The notes under the pieces are model-generated. The model worked only from the letters and a program-made list of their open reading frames with translations, was not told where the DNA came from and made no database searches. This document shows positions 7,743-63,420 of a DNA stretch of 64,000 bases, piece after piece. Numbering within the stretch: the first letter of the stretch is position 1; each line of letters starts with the position of its first letter. The position numbers and the translations under genes were made by a program. Where the stretch lies: IMG/VR virus record IMGVR_UViG_3300046660_000488, positions 408,640 through 472,639 of that record. One strand, written 5' to 3'. The DNA is from a virus.

Positions 7743-7828
7743 GAAATGTCCTAAAAAATGAAGGGGGAGCTTTCTGTTGACAGGCAAGCCCCGAAGGACC
7801 GGCTCCCTAACCCCGGAACCATCACCGC

Positions 7829-8026
7829 TTACGCGGCGACAGCGTAGTCCATGGCAACGTTGTCGTTGGCATTTACAATTGTGAACTGATCGTCGGCCGT
7901 GTCTTGCCGGATATCTCGCAAACCCTTTACCGCCGCGAATCGATGCTGGTCACCCCCACTTAGAAACCCATCGCGGACGATGGGCTTGTATGGTGGAGGT
8001 GCGGGGAATCGCACCCCGGTCTTCAT
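7829..8026 (-). CDS. hypothetical small protein
   Basis: A 65-aa ORF. It is preceded on the minus strand by a CTTAAATAC box and a TGGTAAACCA palindrome. Confidence 0.3.
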   Translation of the reverse strand: MKTGVRFPAPPPYKPIVRDGFLSGGDQHRFAAVKGLRDIRQDTADDQFTIVNANDNVAMDYAVAA

Positions 8027-8091
8027 CGGCTTATTACAGTCTGGTCATCAATATCGTCTGTATTTAAGCATGGTTTACCAAATGGCACAAG

Positions 8092-8556
8092 CTAAATCGA
8101 ATTCTCGTCCATTTTGGTGATCCGCTTGGCGGCCAAGGACTTTTTGCGTTCCTTTTCCGACTGGTGCGCGCGGTACACAATGCACGGACCCATCCAGCCA
8201 TATGGCCCCACGAACAGTGCGGTGATCAGCCACCAGTCTTGGTTTTTAACGAACCACGGGATGTGGTGCGTGACCGTCAGCATGCCCAGCGTACCGAAGA
8301 ACACGAGCAGCAGAAAAGTCGGGCCGAACGTGATGATCTCAGACCTGATCCACCGGCGCCGAGCATCTTGTTCGTCCGGGGTCACCAGCAGACCAAGCTC
8401 GTCTTCCAGCATGGCCTGTCGTTCGGCCATCGCGCAGACCTTCTTGAACCAGTGGCGGTCGTTGATGCCAATGGGGCACGGTCCGGTCTCCGGCGTCCAC
8501 GAGACGAAATCGGCGACGATCTTCTGAGCCCGGTCGGCCACCACGGGTTTCATCGG
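8092..8556 (-). CDS. membrane protein with two predicted TM helices
   Basis: The start at MKPVVADRAQ has its ATG overlapping the serS stop (ATGA). Hydrophobic stretches are IITFGPTFLLLVFFGTLGML and WWLITALFVGPYGWMGPCIVY. Confidence 0.45.
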   Translation of the reverse strand, partial: PMKPVVADRAQKIVADFVSWTPETGPCPIGINDRHWFKKVCAMAERQAMLEDELGLLVTPDEQDARRRWIRSEIITFGPTFLLLVFFGTLGMLTVTHHIPWFVKNQDWWLITALFVGPYGWMGPCIVYRAHQSEKERKKSLAAKRITKMDENSI

Positions 8557-9827
8557 ATGACTTCCAACCCGTTCATGTAGGGTTGCAGGACGCGGGGCAC
8601 GCGGATCGAGCCATCCTCGTTCTGGTAATTCTCCATGACGGCGACCAGCGTGCGGCCGACCGCCAACCCCGAACCGTTGAAGGTCCGCAGGTAACGGTTC
8701 TTGCCACCGTCGCTGGGCTTGTAGCGGGCGTTCATCCGCCGGGATTGGAATTGCCCGAAGTCCGACACGCTCGAAATTTCGCGGTAGGTCTCTTGGCTCG
8801 GAATCCAAACCTCGATGTCGATGGTCTTGGCGGCCGAGAAGCCGGTGTCGCCGCCGCACAGCAGTACCGTGCGGAACGAAAGCTCCAGAGCGCCCAAGAT
8901 GCCTTGGGCGTTGATCAGGATGAAGTTGTGCTCGTTCGCCGTTGCGCTGTCAGTTATCGAGACCAACTCGACCTTGTAGAATTGGTGCTGGCGAATCAGG
9001 CCGCGCGTGTCACGTCCGGCCGAACCCGCCTCGGCGCGGAAGCATGGCGTCAGAGCCACGTAGCGCAGGGGAAGCTGATCCTCGGGGATGATCTTGTCGC
9101 GGACAAGGTTGGTGATCGAAACCTCGGCGGTCGGGATCAGCCAGTGATCCGACTCCGGAATGTGGAACAGGTCGTCCTTGAATTTTGGAAGCTGGCCGGT
9201 CCCGATCAGAGCGTTGGCGTGGACCATCAGCGGAGGATTGACCTCCATGAAGCCGTTCATGGCGTGGCGGTCGAGCATGAATTGGCCAAGCGCCCGTTCG
9301 AGACGCGCCAGCGGACCCTTGGTCACGCAGAACCGGGCGCCGCTCATTTCAGCCGCCGCCTCGAAATCCATCATGCCGAGATTTTCACCCAGCGTGACGT
9401 GGTCCTTGGGTGTGAACGAGAAATTCGGGCGAAGTAATGGGAAGTCAGAGATCACCTTGTTGTGGCTCTCGTCCACGCCGATGGGCACACCAACGTCCAG
9501 CATGTTCGGGATACGCAGCAAGGTTTCTTGAACTTGCTCGTGCAGCTTGCGCTCGTTGGCCGTGGAATCCGAGAGGAAGCCCTTCAGCGCGGTCATCGAC
9601 TCAATCGCCCGCTGGCGCTCGATGCCTTGAAGCGTTGGGATGCGGGCAGATTCCTCGTTGCGCTGCTGAAGCAGGCTTTCGGAATTTTGAATGGCCTTGC
9701 GGTGCTGCTGGTCCAGATCGACCAGCGTGTTGATCAGTACCGAAGCTTCGGCGTGGGTCATCCCCTTCCGGCCAAGCTCGCTGATGACAGCATGCGGGTT
9801 GTCGCGGACGAATTTCAGATCAAGCAT
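8550..9827 (-). CDS. serS: seryl-tRNA synthetase
   Basis: A 425-aa ORF. It has an N-terminal coiled-coil arm and class-II aaRS core motifs (FRAEAGSAGRDTRGLIRQHQF, GSGLAVGRTLVAVMEN). The overall collinearity with SerRS is clear. Confidence 0.85.
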   Translation of the reverse strand: MLDLKFVRDNPHAVISELGRKGMTHAEASVLINTLVDLDQQHRKAIQNSESLLQQRNEESARIPTLQGIERQRAIESMTALKGFLSDSTANERKLHEQVQETLLRIPNMLDVGVPIGVDESHNKVISDFPLLRPNFSFTPKDHVTLGENLGMMDFEAAAEMSGARFCVTKGPLARLERALGQFMLDRHAMNGFMEVNPPLMVHANALIGTGQLPKFKDDLFHIPESDHWLIPTAEVSITNLVRDKIIPEDQLPLRYVALTPCFRAEAGSAGRDTRGLIRQHQFYKVELVSITDSATANEHNFILINAQGILGALELSFRTVLLCGGDTGFSAAKTIDIEVWIPSQETYREISSVSDFGQFQSRRMNARYKPSDGGKNRYLRTFNGSGLAVGRTLVAVMENYQNEDGSIRVPRVLQPYMNGLEVIR

Positions 9828-43881: not shown

Positions 43882-44610
43882 ATGGCCGGGAAGATGGACG
43901 TCAAGCAATCCGACATCGACGCCTTGATGGACATGTTCGGTCCGGAAGACCTGCATCCCGATCTGGTCCATCGCATCGAAGAGCGCGGGAACGGCCACAA
44001 GGTCTTGCACCATCCGCTGATCATCGAGCCGATGTACATGCCGCAACTGCACAAGCGCATCAACCTGATGTACGCGCAGAAGACTGCCGCGCTCGAAGAG
44101 GCAATCGCGGCGCGCAACTGGCCCAGCTACGTCTACCTCCACGAGCGCCCGTACCGCTTCGACGCCCTGACCACGGTGATCTACACCTACCTCGACGGCG
44201 AGATCGACGCCAAAGGCTGGGACCTGATCGGCGGCGTCTGGGTGGACAGCGAGAACATCTATCAGAACCTCGAAGACTGGGAATGCCTGTGGGACGGGAC
44301 CGACCTCGGCGACCGCAAGGCCAGCATGAGCAAGGATGAGCAGAAAGCGTTCAAGGCCCTGCCGCCGGTGATCGACGTGTGGCGCGGATTTGCCCATGAC
44401 GAAGCCATGCTCGGGATGTCGTGGACAACCGATAAAGAACGTGCGATTTGGTTTGCGAAACGATTTGCCGCCGACTCCACTCGCAAGCCGATGCTGGCGT
44501 CTGGGCGGGTCAAGAAGAAGCACGTGTTCGCCCACTTCCTCGGCCGCAACGAGTCCGAGATCGTGACGCTGGGCGAGTACGTCGATGGCGTGACGATGGA
44601 GAAGCTGTGA
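43882..44610 (+). CDS. hypothetical protein (start uncertain)
   Basis: The ORF runs 43816..44610. The start at MAGKMDVKQ is the one past the convergent Dps gene. Confidence 0.4.
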   Translation: MAGKMDVKQSDIDALMDMFGPEDLHPDLVHRIEERGNGHKVLHHPLIIEPMYMPQLHKRINLMYAQKTAALEEAIAARNWPSYVYLHERPYRFDALTTVIYTYLDGEIDAKGWDLIGGVWVDSENIYQNLEDWECLWDGTDLGDRKASMSKDEQKAFKALPPVIDVWRGFAHDEAMLGMSWTTDKERAIWFAKRFAADSTRKPMLASGRVKKKHVFAHFLGRNESEIVTLGEYVDGVTMEKL

Positions 44611-44960
44611 GCGACCGTGACCTGAAGGCGTGGATCATCCTCCGCAAAGACTTGCCCGTCATCAACACCGAACCGACCGCCTTCAGCGTCGCCGTCGCCG
44701 TGGACATGATCCACATCGACAAGAAGGGCACGTACGGCGAATGGCTTGACGCCACCAAGGGCAACCGGAAGAAAACGATCATGAAGGTCGCCGACCTGCC
44801 CACGTTGGAGCAGATCGCCAAGGCGCTGGTCAACGCCAACGTCGAGCACGCCATGATCCACGAGAAGGGTGACGCGGTCGCAACGCCGACCACCACCGGC
44901 CTCCTGATCTACCCGACCTTCGAGTGGCGCCTGCCCTCGTTCTTGAGGAAGCCAGCATGA
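44607..44960 (+). CDS. hypothetical protein (GTG start)
   Basis: The second half of track ORF 44448..44960. Confidence 0.35.
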   Translation: MSDRDLKAWIILRKDLPVINTEPTAFSVAVAVDMIHIDKKGTYGEWLDATKGNRKKTIMKVADLPTLEQIAKALVNANVEHAMIHEKGDAVATPTTTGLLIYPTFEWRLPSFLRKPA

Positions 44961-46417: not shown

Positions 46418-46500
46418 GTGGTGATGGTGTTCTCCATGGCAGGTCGGCAGATCGCAAGCGATCCCCGTACGCGGAAGCCGTAGCCACCAACGCATTCCCC

Positions 46501-46737
46501 TCACGGGGCGTCTGGTCCCGCAGCCGTAGCTACGCCGTTTTCCTCGCCCGACAGCGAGTCCACGGATGGAGGAACGAAAATTTCAGGAATGTACGGACAG
46601 TAGATGCGGTTGGCTTCGCCATCCGGGCTCACGGAGTACCAAGGCCTGCGGTGGTCGATCTCGGCAATCGTCACCTCTTCGCCGTCTTGGAAGTAACGCT
46701 TGACGGTCGTCTCGCTGGCCGGAAACTTAGAAACCAC
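46501..46737 (-). CDS. hypothetical small protein
   Basis: A 78-aa ORF. Confidence 0.3.
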   Translation of the reverse strand: MVSKFPASETTVKRYFQDGEEVTIAEIDHRRPWYSVSPDGEANRIYCPYIPEIFVPPSVDSLSGEENGVATAAGPDAP

Positions 46738-46921
46738 TGGTTGCCCTATAGTCTGTGTACAGCGACTTCAGATCGCTGTCGGTGAGGCCGTACTGATACT
46801 TCGCCCATTCCGCCGATGCGGTATAGTCGCGGAAGCCTTTGACGGCGACGCCATCGACGATGATGTTGACGCTCCCCAGCACTTCACGAAGCTGGATCGT
46901 CTTGCCGTTCTTCTCGACCAT
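46727..46921 (-). CDS. hypothetical small protein
   Basis: A 64-aa ORF. Confidence 0.3.
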   Translation of the reverse strand: MVEKNGKTIQLREVLGSVNIIVDGVAVKGFRDYTASAEWAKYQYGLTDSDLKSLYTDYRATSGF

Positions 46922-46941
46922 GGGTCACTCTCGCTGTTGGA

Positions 46942-47078
46942 TGGTTTCGGGGGCGGGCTTCGAACCCGCGACCTCCCGCGCGGAACATGTCTGGCCAGAC
47001 CATGTCCCATGTTGCACGAGCGCTCTTCTCCGCCTCAGCGCCTTAACAAGGCGCCTCTGGTCCTCTGAGCTATCCCCT
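46942..47078 (-). tRNA. tRNA-like element with a GTT (Asn-type) anticodon arm, a T-arm and an encoded CCA; 137 nt long, so non-canonical
   Basis: On the minus strand: GGGGATAGCTCAGAGG... GCGCC-TTGTTAA-GGCGC (a 5-bp stem and 7-nt loop with U33). After a roughly 60-nt insert carrying a 12-bp hairpin comes GCGGG-TTCGAAG-CCCGC-CCCCGAA-A-CCA. The acceptor strands do not pair as written. Confidence 0.3.
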
Positions 47079-48392
47079 AGACGTGGGTGTGCACATATTA
47101 GGTGGCACGGGCCGGACTCGAACCAGCCTCTAGGTGACAGGCATTGTGCACATGCAAGCCACCCCAAACGGCAACCATCTGACCGCTAATCAATGGGCGT
47201 GTATACCACCCACCTTCCGCAGTCCCGCTGACGCGCCAAAGAGGTGATGCAGGATCGAAGTGGCTTCTCCCCGGCATCGAGCGTCCCGCCATCGTCCATG
47301 TCTCTCGCGCGGGTAACATGGAAAACTTTGGCCTGTGCAATTCCCGCAGCAACACCCCACTATGCTTAGGACACGCCGAAGCGCACCCACCACCGTGCTG
47401 CAACGTTTTCGCAAACGCTATGCCCGATGCCTTGCGGCAGAGCGGGAACCTGTGTTGCCCGATACGGGCGAATTTTGTCGAGGTGAAGCCTTTAGGTCAG
47501 CCTTCACGTGTGCTGTCCACGAGTGCGGCCTACCCCTAAACGGTGGCGGCTCCGTCTCGCGTACGTCTTCACCTCGAATCCGCCCTAGTCCATGCGCTCA
47601 GAGGCCTCATCGGCATGGAGGGAGGCGAATATGGTAGAGAACGGTCGGAAGTCTCTCCGACATGCTCCGGTGACCGGAGTGCTTTAGCCGTAACCGCCCT
47701 AGCCTCGTTGTATACCCAGCGCGACGAGGTCCGGACCTCATTGTCACGCCTTCGTCTGGCAACCTTCAGGTGGAGTGCGCTTATTAAGCTACGTCCTCGT
47801 CTCTTGTGCTCATACGAGCAAAACTCTGGCGGCACGATTGGAACCGGAAATCGAACCTTCACCGGCGATCTTGCGACCGCCTTCCAGTGCCCTCACGAAC
47901 ACTGCCAACTCGTTTCACTGTCAAGTCACTGGGCAATTACTCCAGATCGTCTGTTGCGAGTGCGAGGACCCTACCTCGTAGTGCCGCCGTCGTCGGGGGT
48001 TTCGTCCCAAAGCGAGTCTGGGGATCGAACCTGCCGATTGGTGTGCCTGTTCAGGCAAATTGTGGGGAAGGCATGGACAAGCCATGCTCTGATCCTCGTG
48101 GACCATTCCAATCCCCGGTCTACCCCATCTTCATGGCCAGAAGAATGGCCTGTGGCAGACTTTTCGTGTTGCCCATTGCGGGCGAAAGGTGACGGACTAT
48201 GGACTTTTACCCCGGCTTTTTCGTACAGGTGGTTCCGCAACGCCCGTACACCGCATTCTCATGCGTCAGCTTCACGCACGATTTTCTCAACGAGAGGATC
48301 AGCGACTGTTCTTTCGCAAGTCTGGCAGTTTCACCGCCTAACTGATCTTCTCGAATTATCGCATGGCGCGCGGGAACCACGTTCGTCCCATA

Positions 48393-48459
48393 CATTCGTT
48401 CGAGGGTTCGAACCCCGGACCTCCGCTTCCGCGACGCTCTCCCACTGAGCTAAACGACC
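48393..48459 (-). tRNA. tRNA-like element (D-arm and T-arm canonical; anticodon region too short)
   Basis: On the minus strand: GGTCGTT-TA-GCTC-AGTGGGA-GAGC ... CGGGG-TTCGAAC-CCTCG-AACGAAT. Six of seven acceptor pairs form. Only 18 nt lie between the D-stem and T-stem, where about 22 are expected. Confidence 0.3.
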
Positions 48460-49357
48460 AACTCGCCATGCTATCCCCGGTTTGGTGGCCACCTCACCGA
48501 GGAATTCCTGTGGCCGTTCATCACGGCCGAATGTTCCGGCTACTGGGGGCTCTTTTTCACGAGTGGTCTAATCTCGCTACTAGACAGCCCTTTCCACCGT
48601 GGACGTTAGACCGAATGGGGACCAACCCATCCTTTTTCACGCCCGTCTTGCTTGCGGGTGGGACGCGACCCCCACTGTCTGCATTGCCAACCGGATGAAC
48701 CGGGCTCTCCGCAAATTCTGTTGCCGTTTCCGGCGAATGGCTGACACGGGCAATCCTACTTCCCACCGTCGCGGGTGTCGGATGCTCCTATGAAACCATG
48801 TCGGCCTCGAACCGATCCTCCCCCGATCAGGGGGCACACTACCCGTTGTGCTACAGCTTCCGTGTCCAAAGGGAGTCTATAGCCTCCCAGAGGTTGTTGC
48901 TCATGCGAGCGAATTTTGACCAGCGATTGACATCAGCAGCGCTACTTCAATCACGAACGAGGTGGGGGCGCCAGTCCCCACTTTCCCCAGTGTTTGCTGG
49001 GGTCTTATAAGCTGATAGATCACTCGTTCTACGCTTGGTCGTTCAGCAGTCGGCGCCGCTCAAGAGACAGCACCGTCGCCTACACTTGGATGCCCATGCG
49101 GGCAAATGGTTATGCGCGGGCGGATTTATACCACCGGCCTCCCCGTTGGAAACGGGCTCTCTCGCCCTCCGACCGTTTACTGACAGGTGCGTTTGCAACC
49201 GCGCCCTGCGTTCAACGTATCGAAGCCCAACGACGTCATGGTCACATCCGACTAACGGCGGGTAGTTTACCCCATGCCAGTTCGTTGCCTGAGCTACGCG
49301 CAACTTTGATGCCCATGCGGGCAAATTGGTACGCAGATGGGGTTTCCCGAGGAAACT

Positions 49358-49424
49358 ATACCGGTTGGATTCGAACCAACGCGCACGAGCAATGCTCGCT
49401 GCTCTCCCGCTGAGCTACGGCCCT
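49358..49424 (-). tRNA. tRNA-like element (canonical 5' half and T-arm; acceptor 3' strand mismatched)
   Basis: On the minus strand: AGGGCCG-TA-GCTC-AGCGGGA-GAGC ... GTTGG-TTCGAAT-CCAAC. The middle is CGAGC-ATT-GCTCG, a 3-nt loop rather than an anticodon loop. Confidence 0.3.
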
Positions 49425-50477
49425 TCAATCATGTGGGGATTGTAACCCCTGCACCGCCGAACGGGCACGATCATCTACGATCTCGATTTCCATCCTGTTT
49501 CGTCAACCGGTCGTCCAGAACCGATGCTCGAAGCATCAGAGACCCATCACCACTGACCACCCGCATTGCGCGGGTGACGGGGATTGAACCCGCCGGTCTC
49601 ATTCTTTTCGATCCTTGTACTTCGGACCCATAAACGACCGATTGACGGAACAGGATAGAATGTCTTGAACTTTGCATGTAACCAAATCTCGACTATCGCC
49701 GCAGTGTTGCACACCGCGTGGGACTGTCTCCCACTGTTCTCCGTCCAAAAGCTGGCAATACGCCGCCCTCGCATCAAGCAGGGCGTGGGGCATTCTCCCA
49801 CTGCAAATCGGTTAGAACCTGCCCTATTCCGCTCCCGCTGTGCGGGAGGTGGTCATCACCACTGAATTGGTTACAAGCAAAATCCAAGTTGTTGTTGATG
49901 CGAGACCGCCGACCATCTGCACAAGCCCGAAGGCGGCATGATCGTTCGGCGGTCTCGCCTCACCACGTCTCACAATGTCAAAGAACCCTTCCGAGGAAGG
50001 TGTCAGTGGGTTGCCCCGCCAACGTTTGAACCGTATACTTGAGTGCCAAGTTGAAGTCAAGCACTCATTTCGAATTTCGTGAAGGTTTCTTTCCCACCTA
50101 CAAAGTCAGCCTTTCGGCAGTTGCTTCTAAACGCCCAGCCCCGCGCTTCTTAGGGTCGAAACCCTCCACGTCACCCGAAGGTGAAAGGCTTATCCAACTG
50201 GCAGATTCAAACCGTCCCAACCCGTGTCGGACCTTGCGGGCAATTATTGAGACGTACCGGGCCTGCTGATCCAAGTGGGAACACAGGAGGCATCCGCTTT
50301 ATCCCAGACCGGATTATTCTGGTCAACGAGAAAACGACGGCCCCGACGCGAATGCACGAGTGAGGGGTGTCGAACCCCCACAGACCGCTTTCGGTTCCCG
50401 TTCTGCCTGCTGGTCGGCCCGGCATAATAGGTACTACGATCACCCGTGCATTCACGACGAGGCCGTCGCTTCGAAGA

Positions 50478-50756
50478 TTAGGGGACGACGCCGTCCTTGT
50501 ACAGGTTGCGGTCCACACTGATGTAGATCGCTTCCCAGCCCGCGTCGCGCGCCAGCGTGACCATGGCGTTGAAGATGCCGTCGCTGACCGGGCCGCTGGC
50601 GCGATGCTCGACGAACTTCCGCCACGCCTTGGTCGCATCGGTCGAGACCGCCAGCGACGCCGCTTCGAGATCGACGCGCGGCTTGCCCATGGCCGGAACC
50701 GTCCGGCCAATGATGTAGGCCGACGTCCAGTCCGGCTTGGTGACCTCGTCGGTCAT
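50478..50756 (-). CDS. hypothetical protein
   Basis: A 92-aa ORF. Confidence 0.4.
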   Translation of the reverse strand: MTDEVTKPDWTSAYIIGRTVPAMGKPRVDLEAASLAVSTDATKAWRKFVEHRASGPVSDGIFNAMVTLARDAGWEAIYISVDRNLYKDGVVP

Positions 50757-50995
50757 GCGTCTTCCTTCTCGACCACCGCCATGGCGGCGGTCAGGGTTTC
50801 GACGCCGTCGATGAAGCAGGCTTCCTCGGCGTCCACGTCGGACGGATAGCTATCCCACTGGTAGCCCGGCACGCCCGGCTTGCGGTGGCTGTCCTTGATC
50901 CATCCGCCATGGGCCGGAGAATGCTCCCAGCCCAGCTTTTTGGCGGCGGCCGTCCACACCTTGTGTGCAGCGGCATGGTCGATGCCTTCGGTCAT
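50753..50995 (-). CDS. hypothetical protein
   Basis: An 80-aa ORF. Confidence 0.4.
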   Translation of the reverse strand: MTEGIDHAAAHKVWTAAAKKLGWEHSPAHGGWIKDSHRKPGVPGYQWDSYPSDVDAEEACFIDGVETLTAAMAVVEKEDA

Positions 50996-50997
50996 GG

Positions 50998-52284
50998 TCA
51001 GAATTCATCCTTCTCGCGGAAGTTGGTACGGAACCCGAAACGCTGCTCGAAGGCAACCTTCATCCAGTTTTCGGCGAACCAGACTTCGAAGCCGCCGAAG
51101 TAGCTGTCCTTGCGGGCATAGACCGTGGCGTTGACGCACTTGGCCCAGCGGCGGATTTCGGCGAGCTTGGCGTCGCACTCGTCGAACGTGGTGTAGTCGC
51201 GGTCCAGACGGGTGAACGGCAGGGGCGCGACCGAACCATCGGCGTTCAGCATCGGGACCGGCCGCTCGATCAGCCATTCGCCCGCGCCGAGATCGGCGCC
51301 GTGCATGGTGATGAATTGCTCCATGCCCTCGTTGGCCGCCTTCTTCCGCATCTTCTCGACGGCGTAGTGCGACCGGGCGCGAGCCTCGACCGGGTCCTCG
51401 TGGACCTGACCTTCGTAGGGCGACTCGTAGGTCTTGCCACGCCACAGTTCGCGGCCGGTCGCCCGGTCGATGTAGGCGAAATAGGTCTCGTAGGCGACGG
51501 GCTTGGGCTGCTGGTCGTCGGGCAGGGGGACTTCCTCCCAGACCAATTCGGTCCGGGGCTTGGGCGGATAGCCGTAGGCCGGATAGGCGTTCCCGTACTC
51601 GTCCATTTCGAAGACGTGGGGGTAGCCGTTCTTCTTCGCGGCCATGTAGTCGCGCGTGCTCATCGCGCCGCCCGGATGGCGGCCGTTGTCGCGATAGCGG
51701 TCATCGTCGTCGCGGACCGTGCGGCGAACCTGCACGCGCTCGGTCAGTTGCCTCGGCGAATTCAGTTCGTACCAATTGGCGGGCCTGATCTGCTCGACGA
51801 CGTAGCGAGGCCAGAACGACACCGTCGCCGACCGGTCGTAGAACGCGCCCTTGTAGAACATCGAGCCGCGCTTGCGGCCTTGCTCGTCGTACAGGGTGGA
51901 CCACATCGAATGGTCGTCGGCCCGCATTTCCCAGCCCGGTGGGAAGGTGACGTTGACGAACAGGTCGTCGATTTCCTTGCCGTAGGTGAAGCCGAACGAC
52001 TCGGCCGTGGCGCGGGTCTCGGCCTCGTCAGCCAGCGTGTTGGCCTTGGCGCGTTCGTCGTAGAACGCGGGATCGCGGTGATAGCGCGGCAGGCGATCTT
52101 GGCGACCGGTGGCGCGACGTTGCTCGCGCGCTTCCTGCGCTTCAATCCCACCCGGTGTGGCGGCGGCCAGCACGTTCTCGATTTCCTGCGCGCCACCACC
52201 GGCGGCGAGGGTCATCCCCAGCAGCATGTCCAATCCCGAACGCAAATCCAGCCTCCACAAATCGGTTGAAGAAGCCCTAGACAT
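50998..52284 (-). CDS. hypothetical protein
   Basis: A 428-aa ORF with the start chosen at MSRASSTDLW. It is Tyr/Trp/Arg-rich. Confidence 0.45.
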   Translation of the reverse strand: MSRASSTDLWRLDLRSGLDMLLGMTLAAGGGAQEIENVLAAATPGGIEAQEAREQRRATGRQDRLPRYHRDPAFYDERAKANTLADEAETRATAESFGFTYGKEIDDLFVNVTFPPGWEMRADDHSMWSTLYDEQGRKRGSMFYKGAFYDRSATVSFWPRYVVEQIRPANWYELNSPRQLTERVQVRRTVRDDDDRYRDNGRHPGGAMSTRDYMAAKKNGYPHVFEMDEYGNAYPAYGYPPKPRTELVWEEVPLPDDQQPKPVAYETYFAYIDRATGRELWRGKTYESPYEGQVHEDPVEARARSHYAVEKMRKKAANEGMEQFITMHGADLGAGEWLIERPVPMLNADGSVAPLPFTRLDRDYTTFDECDAKLAEIRRWAKCVNATVYARKDSYFGGFEVWFAENWMKVAFEQRFGFRTNFREKDEF

Positions 52285-52416
52285 GACAGGTTTTACGGTA
52301 AAGTCAAGCAACAATATCATCTATGCTTGTATTTTGCTGTCGAGAAAATAATCGAATTAAGTCTGCGAGACGAAATAGGGTCGGTGGTGTCTTGCCACGA
52401 CAAATTGGAGCAACAA

Positions 52417-52782
52417 ATGGAAATGACTGCGGTACGTTTCACCATGCGACGGATCGACTTCGCCCCCTTCCACGACTGGATGGACGAGCATTACCCCGGA
52501 TGGGCCTACCACGTTGACGTCGGGCCTCTCGACAAAAGCAAAGAGCGCAGCTACCGCGCCGTTCTGGTACAATGCGGTGTGATCGCCGCGCATCCTCGCT
52601 ACATCGACCGTGACCCGCCTCTGGGCGCGGGGATGTCGATCCTGATCCCCGCCGACATGCAGCCCAAGCCGATCACGGAACGATGGGCCTTGCCCGGCTA
52701 TGCGTACGCTTACAAGTGGATTCCGGACATGGGTTGGCGAACCGTGCCGGTGTCAATGCAACTGCCGCTGACCGATAGCTAA
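52417..52782 (+). CDS. hypothetical protein
   Basis: The start at MEMTAVRF has a GGAG SD 6 nt upstream. Confidence 0.4.
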   Translation: MEMTAVRFTMRRIDFAPFHDWMDEHYPGWAYHVDVGPLDKSKERSYRAVLVQCGVIAAHPRYIDRDPPLGAGMSILIPADMQPKPITERWALPGYAYAYKWIPDMGWRTVPVSMQLPLTDS

Positions 52783-53366
52783 GCCGCGATCATGTGCTTG
52801 ATGATCGAAGTGACCTGCATTTCGGTTTCTTCGAGCGTCCCGCCGGTGTCGATGATGAAGTCGGCCATCTTGCGCTTGTCCCGGTCGGGCATTTGCTTGG
52901 CCAAGATCGTCTCGAACACCGCTGCGGTCATGTTCGGTCGAGCAAGCACGCGAGCGCGCTGGACAGAAGCTGGCGCGCTCGCTACCACCACCTTCACGCC
53001 GTCGAGGAATTTCGGCTTGCTCTCGAAGTAGAGCGGGACGTCATAGACAATCATCGGGAAGTAGGTATGCTTGCGCGCGAAGGATTCGTAGCTTTCGGTG
53101 AGCAGCGGCCCGACGAATAGTTCAAGCGCCGTCATCTTCTCCTGATCGTCCAGAACGATGGCGCGCAATTTCTTGCGGTCCACGTGATCCCAGTCGTCCA
53201 GCACGTCGCCGAACATCGACTTGATCTCAAAGGCGTGTTCAGACGAGTAAATCTCGTGCACGGCCGCGTCCGAGCAATGGACGGGGATGCCGTACTGCCG
53301 GAACATTTCGGAGATCGTGGTCTTGCCCATGCCGATGGAACCGGTGAGGACGAGCTTGGTGGTCAT
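52779..53366 (-). CDS. coaE: dephospho-CoA kinase
   Basis: The start is MTTKLVLTGSIGMGKTT, a P-loop in the CoaE position. The 195-aa length and overall CoaE collinearity fit. Confidence 0.75.
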   Translation of the reverse strand: MTTKLVLTGSIGMGKTTISEMFRQYGIPVHCSDAAVHEIYSSEHAFEIKSMFGDVLDDWDHVDRKKLRAIVLDDQEKMTALELFVGPLLTESYESFARKHTYFPMIVYDVPLYFESKPKFLDGVKVVVASAPASVQRARVLARPNMTAAVFETILAKQMPDRDKRKMADFIIDTGGTLEETEMQVTSIIKHMIAA

Positions 53367-53427
53367 GGTGGGCCTCGTGATACACACCAGCCTACCTCCG
53401 CATTGGGAATTTCGTCAACCAGATTCG

Positions 53428-61891: not shown

Positions 61892-62551
61892 GTGCGCGAA
61901 TTCATCACCCTCATCGAGAGCGGCACAGCCGCTGAAGCATTTGACGACTGGTTCGGCAACAGCCGTGTGGTTGATGGTGACGGTCGGCCGCTGATCGTCT
62001 TCCACGGCACGAACCAACCGTTCGAGCAGTTCTCCAAGGCGCGCGGCGGCATGGCCACTGGCCCGCAGGCTGGTGCCATCCACGGGTTCTTCTTCACGAG
62101 CACCGAAGCGGAAGCTTGGGATTATGCCAAGCACGCCGGGAGCAAGGTCGTATCCGGTATCGACCATTTCGAGCAGGAGACGGAACGTCTGCGTTTGGAG
62201 CAGGAACGTCTTGAAAAGCTTGCCCAGCGCACGAACAAGAAATCGGACTGGGATGCGTTCTATGCCGCCTACCAGAATTGGGAAGATTTCGAGATAAATG
62301 CCACGCGCGAGGAAGACGATGTCGGCAACCGCGTCGTCAAGGCCTACCTGTCGCTCCAGAACCCTCTGGAGGTCAATTTCAACGGCACGATGCAGTCTGA
62401 GGCTGGCGTCATCCAAGACGTGGTCGAGAAGGCCGTACGCGACGGCAATGACGGCGTGATCATGCGGAACATCTACGACGGCCCGTATGGCGGCCACACG
62501 AGCGACCACTTCGTCGCGTTCTCACCCGATCAGATTCATCAGGTTGGCTGA
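61892..62551 (+). CDS. effector-island protein 8 (N-terminus V/MREFITLIES; H-Y-E class ADP-ribosyltransferase-like)
   Basis: The GTG start overlaps the upstream stop. RPLIVFHGTNQPFEQFS...GFFFTSTEAEAW matches the [FY]HGT motif of diphtheria-toxin/PARP-like ARTs. Confidence 0.5.
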   Translation: MREFITLIESGTAAEAFDDWFGNSRVVDGDGRPLIVFHGTNQPFEQFSKARGGMATGPQAGAIHGFFFTSTEAEAWDYAKHAGSKVVSGIDHFEQETERLRLEQERLEKLAQRTNKKSDWDAFYAAYQNWEDFEINATREEDDVGNRVVKAYLSLQNPLEVNFNGTMQSEAGVIQDVVEKAVRDGNDGVIMRNIYDGPYGGHTSDHFVAFSPDQIHQVG

Positions 62552-63420
62552 TGCGCTATCGCGAACTCATCGAGGCGGCAAGCGACGAGCCACCGTTCAA
62601 GAAACCCAAGGGCGTTCGCACACCGGCCTTCACCAAGGACGGGCGCCGCATCATCCTGTCGAAAGGTTACATGAGCGTCGATGCCATGATCGACGGCAAG
62701 CCTGCCGGGAACATGCAGATCAGCAGCCCGAGCGACGGCGGACTAGGCTACAGCAATCGGTTCTACGTCAACCGGGTGTGGGTCGAGGAAGAATTCCGTG
62801 GACAAGGCGTGGCCACGGCCATGTACGATTTCGCCTTCCGAGCCGGTTTCAGGCCACTGGGAATGAGCCGCACGCTCACCGACCAAGGTAAGGCGTTCTG
62901 GGACGACCACGTTCGCAAGAAGGCGTCCAAAGGTCTCGGCCGCGACTATCACAGCGATTATCCGAACCGGTTCCACTGGCGACCGTTGCCGATGTCTGAA
63001 GACATCATCAGCGAAGGCAAGGTTCATCAACTGGATACGGGCTACGGTGGAAACGTGCGAATGACGCTCATCTACCAGAATCCGTCTCCCGTTCAAGCAC
63101 AGACAATGGCCAAGAACCAGATGGACCGGTACAACGGCCTTCTGTACCTTCGTGGGATCATGTCCAACGGATCGACGGTCTATGTCGCCGATGGCTGGGC
63201 CTGCACCCATGACGATCTGATGCAGAATTTCTTCCCCGGCAAGAGTGAGAGCGACGAGCGCTTCACGACGTTCGAGATCGCCAACTATGCGGGCGGCAGT
63301 TACGGCGCCGACAGGACCACGTTCCCAGCGAAGGTCGGCGTGGTCAAAGCGGGACATTTCGACGTCGAAACGAACCCGCAGATCGCGAAGATCATCGCCG
63401 GATGCCGGGCGGTCAACTAG
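62551..63420 (+). CDS. effector-island protein 9 (N-terminus MRYRELIEAA; N-terminal GNAT acetyltransferase)
   Basis: VWVEEEFRGQGVATAMYDFAFRAGFRPLG. Confidence 0.5.
   Translation: MRYRELIEAASDEPPFKKPKGVRTPAFTKDGRRIILSKGYMSVDAMIDGKPAGNMQISSPSDGGLGYSNRFYVNRVWVEEEFRGQGVATAMYDFAFRAGFRPLGMSRTLTDQGKAFWDDHVRKKASKGLGRDYHSDYPNRFHWRPLPMSEDIISEGKVHQLDTGYGGNVRMTLIYQNPSPVQAQTMAKNQMDRYNGLLYLRGIMSNGSTVYVADGWACTHDDLMQNFFPGKSESDERFTTFEIANYAGGSYGADRTTFPAKVGVVKAGHFDVETNPQIAKIIAGCRAVN

What the first reader, a model, noticed from the sequence alone, without database searches (positions are those of the whole stretch)
46930..50400. A 3.5-kb ORF-free region packed with tRNA-like modules that do not form canonical cloverleafs
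There is no ORF longer than about 100 codons in this region. On the minus strand there are at least five T-arm signatures. These are GCGGG-TTCGAAG-CCCGC with an encoded CCA (46942), GCTGG-TTCGAGT-CCGGC (47106-47130), a T-arm around 47836, CGGGG-TTCGAAC-CCTCG (48405), GTTGG-TTCGAAT-CCAAC (49363), and GCGGG-TTCAATC-CCCGT (about 49573). Perfect 5' halves (acceptor, TA, GCTC-D-loop-GAGC) lie at 47060-47078, 48437-48459 and 49396-49424. One clean Asn-type anticodon arm (GCGCC-TTGTTAA-GGCGC) lies at about 47027-47043. The spacing between modules is wrong, being 18-20 nt or about 80 nt instead of about 22. The acceptor strands pair poorly. GNRA-tetraloop and long hairpins are interspersed (GGCGGTC-GCAA-GATCGCC at about 47866). 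The region could hold real tRNAs with unusual geometry, tRNAs interrupted by insertions, decayed tRNA relics, or other structured RNAs.
Basis: seen in the sequence. Interest (0 to 1): 0.7.

Follow-up and report, generated by a model that had tools for sequence, protein, structure and literature searches.

The report
Phage array of anticodon-less tRNA mimics
A 3.5-kb gene-free stretch of a huge bacteriophage genome probably encodes about a dozen folded RNAs built from tRNA parts but lacking a working anticodon, separated by a repeated small hairpin; it looks like a processed array of tRNA mimics of unknown purpose, not an ordinary tRNA cluster.

Summary
Window 46922-50477 has no coding signal. 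On the minus strand it carries six strict T-arm hairpins (0.04 expected by chance), four TAGCTCAG 5' halves and five helix-plus-encoded-CCA ends. It contains no canonical tRNA.

New findings:
- Eight copies of a hairpin motif (AUUY-GCNN-loop-NNGC-A) occur only here. They show compensatory stem changes and usually lie just after CCA-like ends, so they look like punctuation.
- There are 11 GNRA/UNCG tetraloop hairpins on the minus strand and none on the plus strand.
- Three cloverleaves have the anticodon arm shrunk to a mini-hairpin. This design recurs in many other phage tRNA arrays.
- One module is a circularly permuted cloverleaf on a long helix, resembling YrlA.
- Four long-helix domains are exceptionally stable (z -5 to -8).

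Best reading: a polycistronic array of tRNA-derived structured RNAs, matured by the tRNA-processing machinery. Their downstream function is unknown.

Limits: the phage (a 578-kb metagenomic genome with tmRNA and SerRS) has no relatives in any searched collection. There is therefore no cross-genome covariation and no expression evidence. Partial decay of an old tRNA array cannot be excluded.

The parts
50330..50472 (-). M1. A roughly 30-bp imperfect helix starts just after the upstream stop codon. It carries a three-way head with a 9-bp acceptor-like stem, a 6-bp/4-nt D-like arm and the T-arm GGGGG-TTCGACA-CCCCT. It is followed by GUUUUCUCG, so it looks like an intrinsic terminator.
   Evidence: Weak tRNA-Sec model hit at 50354-50449 (24.6 bits, E 0.11). 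MFE -81 kcal/mol, z -7.2. Sequence.
50032..50060 (-). Candidate sigma-70-like promoter, TTGACT-17 nt-TATACG. Weak.
   Evidence: Read from the sequence. The consensus scanner did not report it because the -10 hexamer ends in G.
49889..49971 (-). Domain A. A long, nearly perfect hairpin with GCCGAACG on its 5' strand and a CUUCGG-type tip.
   Evidence: z -4.9. The GNCGAANG motif was located, but this motif is not enriched in the region.
49668..49884 (-). Domain B. A multi-branched domain of about 217 nt, closed by a helix of about 20 bp. It contains two paralogous hairpins (CAGTGGGAG-N-CCCACGC).
   Evidence: z -5.3. Repeat family D11.
49488..49660 (-). Domain C. A 29-bp outer helix, plus further pairing, has GGGUCCGAAG on its 5' strand. 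It bears a circularly permuted cloverleaf:
- junction stem GAGACC/GGUCUC
- T-arm at 49577-49593
- closed 7-bp acceptor-like stem-loop at 49558-49576
- D-like hairpin GUCA-GUGG-UGAU at 49546-49557
   Evidence: strand folding gives -90.1 kcal/mol and z -7.86, with 0 of 200 shuffles as stable. The arm order T, closed acceptor stem, D matches the published YrlA description.
49327..49479 (-). Unit closed by an 8-bp stem (CGUAGAUG/CAUCUGCG) and ending in UACCA. It embeds tRNA-like #2 (49358-49424), which has perfect D and T arms, an anticodon arm reduced to a 5-6-bp hairpin with a 3-nt loop, and a poor acceptor.
   Evidence: Rfam tRNA 33.4 bits. Short-arm model R1 40 bits, E 4e-13. Fold.
49310..49326 (-). 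Punctuation hairpin 1, AUUUGCCC-GCAU-GGGCA, directly after ...UACCA.
49107..49303 (-). Unit U1. Acceptor-like stem UGCGCG/CGCGCA, then UA-GCUCAGG, an insert of about 150 nt with four hairpins, the T-arm GGUGG-UAUAAAU-CCGCC (49119-49135), and a UAACCA end.
49091..49107 (-). Punctuation hairpin 2, AUUUGCCC-GCAU-GGGCA. Its first A completes the CCA of U1.
48915..49090 (-). Unit U2. A multi-hairpin domain closed by GACCA/UGGUC, with no T-loop.
   Evidence: z -2.5.
48898..48914 (-). Punctuation hairpin 3, AUUCGCUC-GCAU-GAGCA. The U-A pair is a compensatory change.
48739..48897 (-). Unit U3. It contains an 8/4-type tRNA-like cloverleaf (48790-48860) with a 5-6-nt 'anticodon' loop, then a 3' extension of about 50 nt ending in GCCA.
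   Evidence: ARAGORN tRNA-???. R1 21.8 bits, E 1.5e-6.
48722..48738 (-). Punctuation hairpin 4, AUUCGCCG-GAAA-CGGCA. The G-C pair is a compensatory change and the loop is a GNRA tetraloop.
48188..48721 (-). Unit U4 (534 nt). It includes tRNA-like #1 (48392-48459), which has canonical D and T arms, the variable loop AGGUC, and an anticodon arm replaced by the 4-bp stem UCGC/GCGG capped with a GGAA tetraloop. This cloverleaf is nested in an outer stem GCAUGGCG/CGCCAUGC. A degenerate punctuation remnant lies at about 48370-48395.
   Evidence: Rfam tRNA 37.4 bits. R1 72.7 bits, but this sequence was in the training set. Repeat D8..
48170..48187 (-). Punctuation hairpin 5, UUUCGCCC-GCAAU-GGGCA.
48061..48169 (-). 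Unit U5. Two hairpin domains; the second is closed by GGGGA/UCCCC and followed by ACA.
48044..48060 (-). Punctuation hairpin 6, AUUUGCCU-GAAC-AGGCA. The U-A pair is a compensatory change.
47824..48043 (-). Unit U6. A small domain carrying GGCAGGUUCGAUCC, then a domain closed by GGCGGCAC/GUGCCGCC. It contains GCAA- and GUGA-capped hairpins and a T-loop-like GGUUCGAUUU. It ends in GCCAGAG.
47807..47823 (-). Punctuation hairpin 7, UUUUGCUC-GUAU-GAGCA.
47632..47798 (-). Unit U7a. A cloverleaf-like four-way junction closed by GAGGACG/CGUUCUC. It starts GAGGACG-UA-GCUUAAUAAGC and ends UACCA, followed by a degenerate punctuation (UAUUCGCC...).
   Evidence: fold, z -2.2..
47474..47631 (-). Unit U7b. 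A multi-hairpin domain closed by GAGGUGAAG/CUUCACCUC.
   Evidence: z -2.8.
47456..47473 (-). Punctuation hairpin 8, AUUCGCCC-GUAUC-GGGCA.
47097..47455 (-). Unit U8a. Several tetraloop hairpins (GCAA, GCGA, UUCG), then the T-arm GCUGG-UUCGAGU-CCGGC (47111-47127), followed by CCGUGCC-A-CC.
46942..47080 (-). Unit U8b, an expanded tRNA-like RNA. It has:
- stem GGGG/CCCC
- AUAGCUCAG
- a hairpin with a canonical Asn-type 7-nt loop (47038-47054)
- an extra arm of about 50 nt
- the variable-loop-like AGGUC
- the T-arm GCGGG-UUCGAAG-CCCGC (46953-46969)
- CCCCGAA-A-CCA

It ends 20 nt before the next ORF's ATG.
   Evidence: partial R1 hit 18.4 bits; the ARAGORN intron model, judged dubious.

Best explanation
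The region is one minus-strand transcription unit, or a few. It encodes an array of at least twelve non-coding structured RNAs derived largely from tRNA genes.

The modules keep the parts of tRNA that the maturation machinery recognises: the D/T-loop elbow, a helix stacked on a T-arm, and a 3' NCCA. The anticodon arm has been deleted to a mini-hairpin, replaced by long inserts, or, in one module, opened into a long helix while the acceptor stem is closed (a permuted cloverleaf).

Units are separated by a conserved single-stranded AUUY followed by a 4-5-bp hairpin that lies just downstream of the CCA-like ends.

The inferred mechanism is that the precursor is cut in the AU-rich spacer (RNase E-type) and at module 5' ends (RNase P). 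The 3' ends are then trimmed back to, or repaired to, CCA. This yields stable tRNA-shaped RNAs that cannot decode.

What the products do is not shown. The most likely roles are as mimics or decoys, or as scaffolds that engage tRNA-binding factors: host tRNA-targeting defence nucleases or transferases, Ro60-type RNPs, or the phage's own translation-related enzymes.

Shown: the non-coding status, the strand, the motifs, the repeat and its covariation, and the short-arm cloverleaves. Inferred: transcription, processing and function.
For: - There is no coding periodicity.
- All tRNA-type signals are on the minus strand and far above chance: six strict T-arms against 0.04 expected and four TAGCTCAG.
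- Eight punctuation hairpins occur only in this region and in one orientation. All 32 core stem pairs are Watson-Crick. Two stem positions change on both sides (C-G to U-A or G-C) in four copies (read from the alignment).
- CCA sits 0-3 nt upstream of four of the eight copies, and of one degenerate copy.
- GNRA/UNCG tetraloop hairpins number 11 on minus and 0 on plus, against about 1 per kb elsewhere and 2.7 in shuffles.
- All 16 delimited domains fold better as the minus strand. M1, A, B and C have z -4.9 to -7.9.
- The G over C excess of the minus strand (GC skew -0.10) is sustained across the region.
- Three cloverleaves with shortened anticodon arms are detected by Rfam and by a dedicated model.
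- The same short-arm design recurs in other phage and bacterial tRNA arrays: 96% of cells are paired and all four mini-arm pairs covary. There are at least 89 distinct cases in IMG/VR, many inside tRNA arrays.
- The genome is a huge phage with its own tmRNA, SerRS and a PTH2-like gene.
Against: - No homologous locus could be found, so there is no cross-species covariation for any unit and no expression data.
- Many units have unremarkable folding z-scores (-0.5 to -2.5). A sliding-window scan does not separate the region from coding flanks.
- Acceptor stems of the best cloverleaves are poor (2-4 mismatches). Two punctuation copies are degenerate. Both are what decay would produce.
- No convincing promoter was found.
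- No RNA-processing or RNA-binding gene was identified next to the array.
- Mini-hairpin arms could arise from simple loop deletions that keep the old stem (caveat).
Confidence: 0.58

Rival explanations
1. The region is a graveyard: a former phage tRNA gene array whose members have lost function and are decaying by deletions and insertions. The conserved bits are only what has not yet eroded.
For: - No canonical tRNA remains.
- Acceptor stems are poor.
- Degenerate punctuation copies lie at about 48370-48395 and 47620-47632.
- Several units have near-random folding z-scores.
- Loop deletions alone would produce mini-hairpins (caveat).
Against: - tRNAs do not contain GNRA/UUCG tetraloops, yet 11 occur here on the sense strand and none on the antisense strand.
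- The punctuation hairpin keeps perfect pairing through compensatory changes.
- D- and T-loop tertiary nucleotides are intact where anticodon loops are gone.
- Domains M1, A, B and C are new long helices with z down to -7.9 and are not tRNA remnants.
- 3.5 kb of junk is unusual in a phage genome that is otherwise densely coding.
Confidence: 0.2
2. The array, or its 5' part, is a set of Y-RNA-like partners (YrlA/YrlB type) for a phage Ro60/Rsr (TROVE) protein encoded elsewhere in the 578-kb genome. They would form an RNA-surveillance or RNA-repair RNP.
For: - Domain C has the YrlA layout: a long terminal helix with a GGUCCGA-like 5' strand, then a T-arm, a closed 7-bp acceptor-like stem and a D-like arm (descriptions in PMC4201824, and bioRxiv 10.1101/312249).
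- Domain A is a long hairpin with GCCGAACG on its 5' strand, resembling YrlB/Yrn2.
- Bacterial Y RNAs are made as polycistrons with tRNAs, carry T-arms, and one is cut by RNase P and receives CCA.
- Some jumbo phages encode TROVE proteins (PMC7824862).
Against: - No TROVE/Ro60 gene is among the roughly 45 larger or array-flanking window ORFs scanned.
- The same-strand 440-aa upstream protein has no Pfam or PDB match, and its low-confidence model does not look like a HEAT-repeat ring.
- No Rfam family matches domain C even at E up to 10.
- The GNCGAAN0-1G and GGUCCGA motifs are not enriched.
- The D-like loop is only 4 nt, and the UA linker conserved in YrlA is absent.
Confidence: 0.1
3. The modules are functional but non-canonical decoding tRNAs (irregular 8/4 or allo-tRNA-like species, tRNAs with giant variable arms or unconventional introns). 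They would be charged for example by the phage SerRS, which ignores the anticodon.
For: - The phage encodes SerRS at 8550-9827.
- One module has an 8/4 acceptor/T geometry.
- M1 resembles tRNA-Sec.
- 46942-47080 has a canonical Asn-type loop, a very long extra arm and an encoded ACCA.
- Irregular 8/4 tRNAs and polycistrons of irregular tRNAs are reported in alphaproteobacterial phages and soil bacteria (PMC5389517).
Against: - The three full cloverleaves have 3-6-nt loops in place of the 7-nt anticodon loop.
- ARAGORN at lowered thresholds gives only implausible intron models.
- By homology with module 48392-48459, the Asn-type hairpin may be an insertion in the D-loop rather than the anticodon arm.
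- Acceptor stems are mismatched.
Confidence: 0.06
4. The region is a DNA-level element (replication origin, partition or packaging site). The eight inverted repeats would be protein-binding sites, and the RNA-like features would be incidental.
For: An ORF-free region with eight copies of a 14-bp dyad, all in one orientation.
Against: - Both arms of the dyad change together so as to keep complementarity rather than sequence, which is the signature of a nucleic-acid hairpin.
- The flanks are asymmetric and co-oriented with the T-arms and CCA ends.
- Tetraloop and G-U strand asymmetry points to RNA.
- There is no cumulative-skew inflection inside the region.
Confidence: 0.03

Closest known systems
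YrlA / bacterial Y RNAs (Ro60/Rsr partners; Chen et al. 2014 PMC4201824; Wang et al. 2018 bioRxiv 10.1101/312249)
   Same: These are tRNA-derived mimics without an anticodon loop. The cloverleaf is circularly permuted (T-arm, closed acceptor-like stem, D-arm) and sits on a long helix formed by the two ends, with a GGUCCGA-like 5' strand. They are encoded with tRNAs in polycistrons, and one member is cut by RNase P and gains CCA. Domain C (49488-49660) has this layout.
   Different: - No Ro60/TROVE gene is nearby.
- There is no covariance-model match.
- The D-loop is shorter and the conserved UA linker is missing.
- Only one of about a dozen modules has this topology. The others have open acceptor-like ends with encoded CCA.
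Irregular tRNAs and polycistrons of irregular tRNA-like sequences (8/4, 9/3 'allo-tRNAs'; Mukai et al. 2017, PMC5389517)
   Same: Non-7/5 acceptor/T geometry (48790-48860 is 8/4; M1 has a 9-bp stem and a 6-bp D stem). They occur in tRNA clusters of alphaproteobacterial phages, and possible non-decoding regulatory roles have been proposed.
   Different: Allo-tRNAs keep a 7-nt anticodon loop and a long variable arm, and they were shown to be charged and to decode. The modules here lack an anticodon loop.
Phage T4 RNAC/RNAD (species 1 and 2 stable RNAs encoded with the T4 tRNA cluster)
   Same: Small stable RNAs of unknown function, encoded in a phage tRNA region of a T4-like lineage. Their function is still unknown (PMC9697503). 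That they mature with the tRNAs is from my own knowledge.
   Different: T4 has two such RNAs among eight real tRNAs. Here there are at least twelve modules and no real tRNA. No sequence similarity was tested or expected.
GOLLD and ROOL large ornate RNAs of phages
   Same: Large, highly structured non-coding RNAs that sit beside tRNA genes in phage and prophage genomes (from my own knowledge).
   Different: No Rfam hit to either family even at E up to 5. The region is modular and repeat-punctuated rather than one large conserved fold.
tmRNA tRNA-like domain and mascRNA-type or engineered tRNA scaffolds
   Same: An acceptor/T-arm minihelix and elbow are kept for recognition by RNase P, CCA-adding enzyme and others, while the anticodon arm is missing or replaced by other RNA. 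The same phage carries a permuted tmRNA.
   Different: No mRNA-like reading frame or pseudoknot ring was seen. ARAGORN tmRNA calls in the region appear only at lowered thresholds and are spurious. G3:U70 is absent from the window modules.

Membership tests
Canonical tRNA (Rfam RF00005 / ARAGORN) | Cloverleaf with a 7-bp acceptor, D-arm, T-arm and correct spacing, passing the model threshold | tested here: inconclusive
   Two hits pass Rfam's gathering score (37.4 and 33.4 bits against 29) at 48393-48459 and 49361-49420. All other T-arms lack a scoring cloverleaf. ARAGORN reports only one aberrant gene.
Canonical tRNA (Rfam RF00005 / ARAGORN) | 5-bp anticodon stem with a 7-nt loop (U33, anticodon, purine 37) | tested here: not met
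   Loops are GGAA (4 nt), AUU/CAUUG (3-5 nt) and UGAUC/CUGAUC (5-6 nt) in the three cloverleaves. The only canonical 7-nt loop (47038-47054) is not in a canonical cloverleaf.
Canonical tRNA (Rfam RF00005 / ARAGORN) | Fully paired acceptor stem followed by a discriminator base (with or without CCA) | tested here: not met
   There are 2-4 non-pairs in the acceptor stems of 48392-48459, 49358-49424 and 46942-47080. Encoded ACCA is present only in the last of these.
YrlA-type Y RNA | Permuted tRNA-like domain (T-arm, closed acceptor-like stem-loop, D-arm) on a helix formed by the 5' and 3' ends | tested here: met
   Domain C, 49488-49660: the minimum-free-energy and centroid folds agree, z -7.86. 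Sub-elements are listed. The layout was compared with the published descriptions.
YrlA-type Y RNA | GNCGAAN0-1G / GGUCCGA Ro60-binding motif on the 5' strand | tested here: inconclusive
   GGGUCCGAAG is present at 49620-49629, but the motif classes occur at background frequency in the window.
YrlA-type Y RNA | Encoded within about 4 kb of, and on the same strand as, a Ro60/Rsr (TROVE) gene | tested here: not met
   No TROVE hit in the flanking proteins or in the larger window proteins. The 440-aa upstream protein has no Pfam or PDB match, and its low-confidence model does not look like a HEAT-repeat ring.
YrlA-type Y RNA | Match to a YrlA covariance model | tested here: inconclusive
   No Rfam family scores on 49470-49670 at E up to 10. 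I could not confirm that Rfam 15 holds a YrlA model, and the published model was not available.
GOLLD / ROOL / other curated large RNAs | Match to the Rfam covariance model | tested here: not met
   No such hit on 46500-50800 with permissive filters at E up to 5.
CRISPR array | Identical 24-48-nt repeats separated by spacers of 25-70 nt of uniform length | tested here: not met
   The repeats are 17-18 nt and variable. Their spacing is 127-725 nt and irregular.
Short-anticodon-arm tRNA-like genes of phage tRNA arrays (an operational class defined here) | Intact acceptor, D and T arms with only 8-13 nt (a mini-hairpin) where the 17-nt anticodon arm should be | tested here: met
   Model R1, built from four external members plus 48392-48459, scores 49358-49424 at 40 bits and 48790-48860 at 21.8 bits. 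The window modules have weaker acceptors than most external members.

The most novel reading that the evidence does not exclude
Huge phages may carry dedicated 'tRNA-mimic cassettes'. These would be polycistronic arrays in which tRNA cores serve as self-processing scaffolds for a panel of different structured RNAs: anticodon-less cloverleaves, a permuted Y-RNA-like mimic and ornate long-helix domains. A phage-specific punctuation hairpin would release them. Their role would be to saturate or misdirect host factors that recognise tRNA shape, such as tRNA-targeting defence nucleases or nucleotidyltransferases, RNase P/E, or Ro60-type surveillance. Anticodon-less tRNA mimics would then be a widespread, so far undescribed class of phage non-coding RNA.
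Probability: 0.25. Interest if true: 0.85.

Novelty: new variant of a known kind. Interest (0 to 1): 0.62.

Why it matters
Phage tRNA genes are currently explained by codon supplementation or by escape from tRNA-cleaving defences. Both explanations require a working anticodon. An array made only of tRNA-shaped RNAs that cannot decode, kept in a phage that also carries tmRNA and SerRS, points to a different use of the tRNA fold, such as mimicry, scaffolding or decoys.

The side observation that short-anticodon-arm tRNA-like genes are common in phage tRNA arrays, and are missed by ARAGORN, suggests that standard annotation hides a whole class of such RNAs.

The locus also gives a compact, testable set of substrates for RNase P, RNase E and CCA-adding processing, plus a candidate phage Y-RNA-like module.

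Tried and rejected
Searches for homologous loci all failed:
- blastn of the region against 50,697 phage records gave no match.
- The flanking 440-aa and 92-aa proteins have no syntenic relatives. Only the same phage turned up, as a JGI 578-kb contig and a Logan 67-kb contig, plus domain-level hits in Brevundimonas, Gordonia and Mycobacterium phages that have no RNA array beside them.
- The JGI copy could not be fetched.
- The region downstream of terminase in Sinorhizobium phage Phosso is not syntenic.
- A conserved neighbour (phrog_4776) only led to mycobacteriophages.

Motif scans for the punctuation hairpin in IMG/VR and in metagenomes returned only single chance matches.

Sliding-window folding z-scores did not discriminate the region from its flanks (one search timed out).

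The ARAGORN intron and low-threshold modes gave implausible models, including spurious tmRNAs.

The Ro60 lead found no support. There was no Pfam, PDB-sequence or fold match for the upstream 440-aa protein, and its AlphaFold model had a pLDDT of 57. No TROVE or RNA-repair enzyme was found among the roughly 45 window proteins scanned.

Other negative results:
- No Rfam hit for domain C.
- The YrlA supplementary alignments are not held.
- Neighbours of short-arm tRNA-likes in other phages share no common gene.
- G3:U70 (alanine identity) is not enriched in that class.
- A prophage short-arm sequence was absent from E. coli genomes.
- Literature searches found no description of anticodon-less phage tRNA mimics.

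Full report
CONTEXT

The window comes from a huge tailed phage.
- Its large terminase is 56-57% identical to those of Sinorhizobium phage Phosso and Agrobacterium phage Atu_ph07.
- A 978-aa tail sheath is present.
- An alphaproteobacterial-type permuted tmRNA lies at 7763-8099 on the minus strand. A seryl-tRNA synthetase lies beside it at 8550-9827 on the minus strand.
- A protein 100% identical over 93% of the window's 440-aa ORF is recorded on a 578,292-bp JGI contig, and the exact protein is on a 67-kb Logan contig from SRR26076590.
- G+C is about 59%.

THE OBSERVATION

The upstream ORF stops at 50478 and the next ORF starts at 46921. Between them nothing has this genome's coding signature. 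Real genes have GC3 of 0.75-0.90. The one long ORF in the region (plus strand, 47543-48448) is flat at 0.58/0.58/0.56.

The tRNA-like signals are real, confined to the minus strand and far above chance:
- Six strict T-arm hairpins, against 0.04 in shuffles.
- Four TAGCTCAG 5' halves, none on the plus strand.

The tRNA finders confirm that these are not ordinary tRNAs:
- ARAGORN reports one aberrant gene.
- Allowing introns or lowering thresholds yields only implausible models.
- Rfam's tRNA model passes threshold twice (48393-48459 and 49361-49420). Both alignments have a 3-5-nt loop where the 7-nt anticodon loop belongs.
- No other Rfam family matches, even at E up to 5.

NEW ANATOMY

1. Punctuation hairpin. 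A motif with consensus A-U-U-Y-G-C-N-N-(loop of 4-5 nt starting with G)-N-N-G-C-A-(A/C)-C-A occurs eight times. All copies are on the minus strand and all lie between 47456 and 49326.
   - All 32 core stem pairs are Watson-Crick.
   - Two stem positions change on both sides together (C-G to U-A twice at one position; C-G to G-C and to U-A at the other).
   - Keeping complementarity rather than sequence is what a nucleic-acid hairpin does, not a protein-binding site.
   - Two further degenerate copies exist, after 48395 and after 47632.

2. CCA ends. The hairpins follow CCA-like ends. Units end ...UACCA (49327)...UAACCA (49107)...GCCA (48738)...GCCAGAG (47824) and ...UACCA (47632). The last unit ends CCCCGAA-A-CCA at 46942. 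In each case the CCA follows the 3' strand of a helix that closes the unit.

3. Tetraloops. Hairpins of at least 4 bp capped by GNRA or UNCG number 11 on the minus strand and 0 on the plus strand. The rest of the window has about 1 per kb on either strand, and shuffles of the region give 2.7. tRNAs have no such loops, so these features were acquired. They mark the minus strand as the folded RNA strand.
   - All 16 delimited domains fold better as the minus strand.
   - The minus strand has a sustained G excess.

4. Long-helix domains. The 5' third of the region holds four very stable domains:
   - M1 (50330-50472, z -7.2). A terminator-like helix with a tRNA-Sec-like head and a U-tract.
   - A (z -4.9).
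   - B (z -5.3).
   - C (z -7.9, with 0 of 200 shuffles as stable).

5. Domain C. Its head is a circularly permuted cloverleaf. It consists of the junction stem GAGACC/GGUCUC, the T-arm GCGGG-UUCAAUC-CCCGU, a closed 7-bp stem-loop and a D-like hairpin containing GG. It sits on a long helix whose 5' strand contains GGGUCCGAAG.

6. Short-arm cloverleaves. Three full cloverleaves have shortened anticodon arms:
   - 48392-48459: 4 bp plus GGAA.
   - 49358-49424: 5-6 bp plus a triloop.
   - 48790-48860: 8/4 geometry with a 5-6-nt loop.
   - The first two keep every elbow nucleotide (U8, A14, G18G19, T54-A58) but have poor acceptors. Each is nested inside an outer closing stem.

7. Expanded tRNA cores. 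Units 49107-49303 and 46942-47080 are tRNA cores with inserts of 50-150 nt.

IS THE SHORT-ARM DESIGN A ONE-OFF?

No. A spacing-specific pattern that canonical tRNAs cannot match found tRNA-like genes with a 4-bp stem and a GNRA tetraloop in unrelated phage contigs (L187, L195) and in bacterial contigs (for example L207, inside an Arenimonas tRNA array).

Five such sequences give a cloverleaf with 96% of cells paired. All four mini-arm pairs covary, and 0 of 500 shuffles reach the observed values. That shuffle control does not preserve relatedness, so it is not a probability; the control that slid the 3' partners gave 33-47% of cells paired.

- 89 distinct sequences were recovered, 60 of them with intact acceptor and T stems.
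- 57% of the shortened arms form a hairpin of at least 3 bp, against 6% of shuffled arms.
- Many of these genes sit inside large arrays of normal-length tRNAs.
- ARAGORN misses them.

Caveat: a simple loop deletion keeps the old stem, so hairpin formation alone is not proof of selection. However, by eye, one family keeps its mini-arm (CACUACAAAAGUG) while its acceptor and T stems appear to covary between contigs. This was not formally tested.

I found no paper describing this class.

WHAT IT MOST LIKELY IS

The best reading is a polycistronic array of tRNA-derived structured RNAs. They are probably matured by the tRNA machinery: RNase E-type cleavage in the AUUY spacer beside the hairpin, RNase P at 5' ends, and exonucleolytic trimming or repair to CCA. 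The products would be stable tRNA-shaped RNAs that cannot decode.

Transcription, processing and function are all inferred. Only the sequence anatomy is shown. I put this reading at about 0.58.

Precedents:
- T4 RNAC and RNAD, still of unknown function (PMC9697503).
- Bacterial Y RNAs, which are tRNA mimics made in polycistrons with tRNAs. One is cut by RNase P and receives CCA (PMC4201824).
- Irregular tRNA-like polycistrons, and 8/4 tRNAs in alphaproteobacterial phages (PMC5389517).

RIVALS

- Decaying tRNA array (0.20). This explains the bad acceptors and the degenerate repeats. It does not explain the tetraloops, the hairpin covariation, the intact elbows or the new long helices.
- Ro60/Y-RNA system (0.10). 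Domain C fits structurally, but there is no TROVE gene in the roughly 45 larger or array-flanking window ORFs I scanned, no model hit and no motif enrichment. The other 510 kb of the genome could not be examined.
- Unusual decoding tRNAs (0.06). The SerRS gene and the 8/4 geometry argue for this; the missing anticodon loops argue against.
- DNA-level element (0.03).

LIMITS

No relative of this phage exists in any collection I could search. No unit has cross-genome covariation support and there are no expression data. My unit boundaries rest on minimum-free-energy folds and on the repeat. They should be treated as working hypotheses.

VERDICT

This is a real and unusual feature. I classify it as a new variant of known kinds (phage tRNA-region stable RNAs and tRNA mimics). 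It has a credible but unproven chance of representing an undescribed class of phage non-coding RNA.

Noticed in passing
window 7763-8099 (-) and 8550-9827 (-): A two-piece (circularly permuted) alphaproteobacterial-type tmRNA gene (Rfam 114-122 bits) lies right next to a phage-encoded seryl-tRNA synthetase (tRNA-synt_2b plus Seryl_tRNA_N). This is a translation-related gene pair in a huge phage.
   Followed up: partly
IMG/VR loci L186-L187, L195, L218-L337; genome contigs L207-L216: tRNA-like genes with intact acceptor, D and T arms but only 8-13 nt (usually a mini-hairpin) in place of the 17-nt anticodon arm are frequent in phage contigs, often inside large tRNA arrays. ARAGORN missed the two tested (L186, L187). 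One family (arm CACTACAAAAGTG) appears conserved across many gut-phage contigs. I found no published description.
   Followed up: partly
window 44607-44960 (+): A weak PTH2 (peptidyl-tRNA hydrolase) family hit lies about 2 kb from the array. Other neighbours are DUF4326, a ferritin-like protein, a CoaE-like dephospho-CoA kinase (52779-53387), a cold-shock protein and a GH16 glycosidase.
   Followed up: no
window 47543-48448 (+): The Logan assembly's gene caller annotates a 277-aa protein here, antisense to the RNA array. Codon-position GC is flat and there is no family hit, so it is almost certainly a false gene call.
   Followed up: yes
window 50998-52320 (-): A 440-aa protein with a conserved beta-rich domain (about residues 100-175; invariant G110, D118, W130, H137, D145, R151) is shared with Brevundimonas jumbo phages, Gordonia phage VanLee and Mycobacterium prophages. 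It has no Pfam, PDB or fold match.
   Followed up: partly
L186 3367-4453: In a Dysgonomonas prophage contig, an anticodon-less tRNA-like gene with a G3:U70 acceptor lies 1.7 kb upstream of an RT-17 RNA (Rfam) and a reverse-transcriptase gene.
   Followed up: no
window 61892-62551 (+) and 62551-63420 (+): An ART-PolyVal ADP-ribosyltransferase domain protein is followed by a GNAT acetyltransferase. These may be host-modifying or anti-defence genes.
   Followed up: no
window 49716-49736, 49783-49803, 48665-48685 (-): A second small repeated hairpin family (CAGUGGGAG-N3-5-CCCACGC) occurs three times inside the array, twice within domain B.
   Followed up: no
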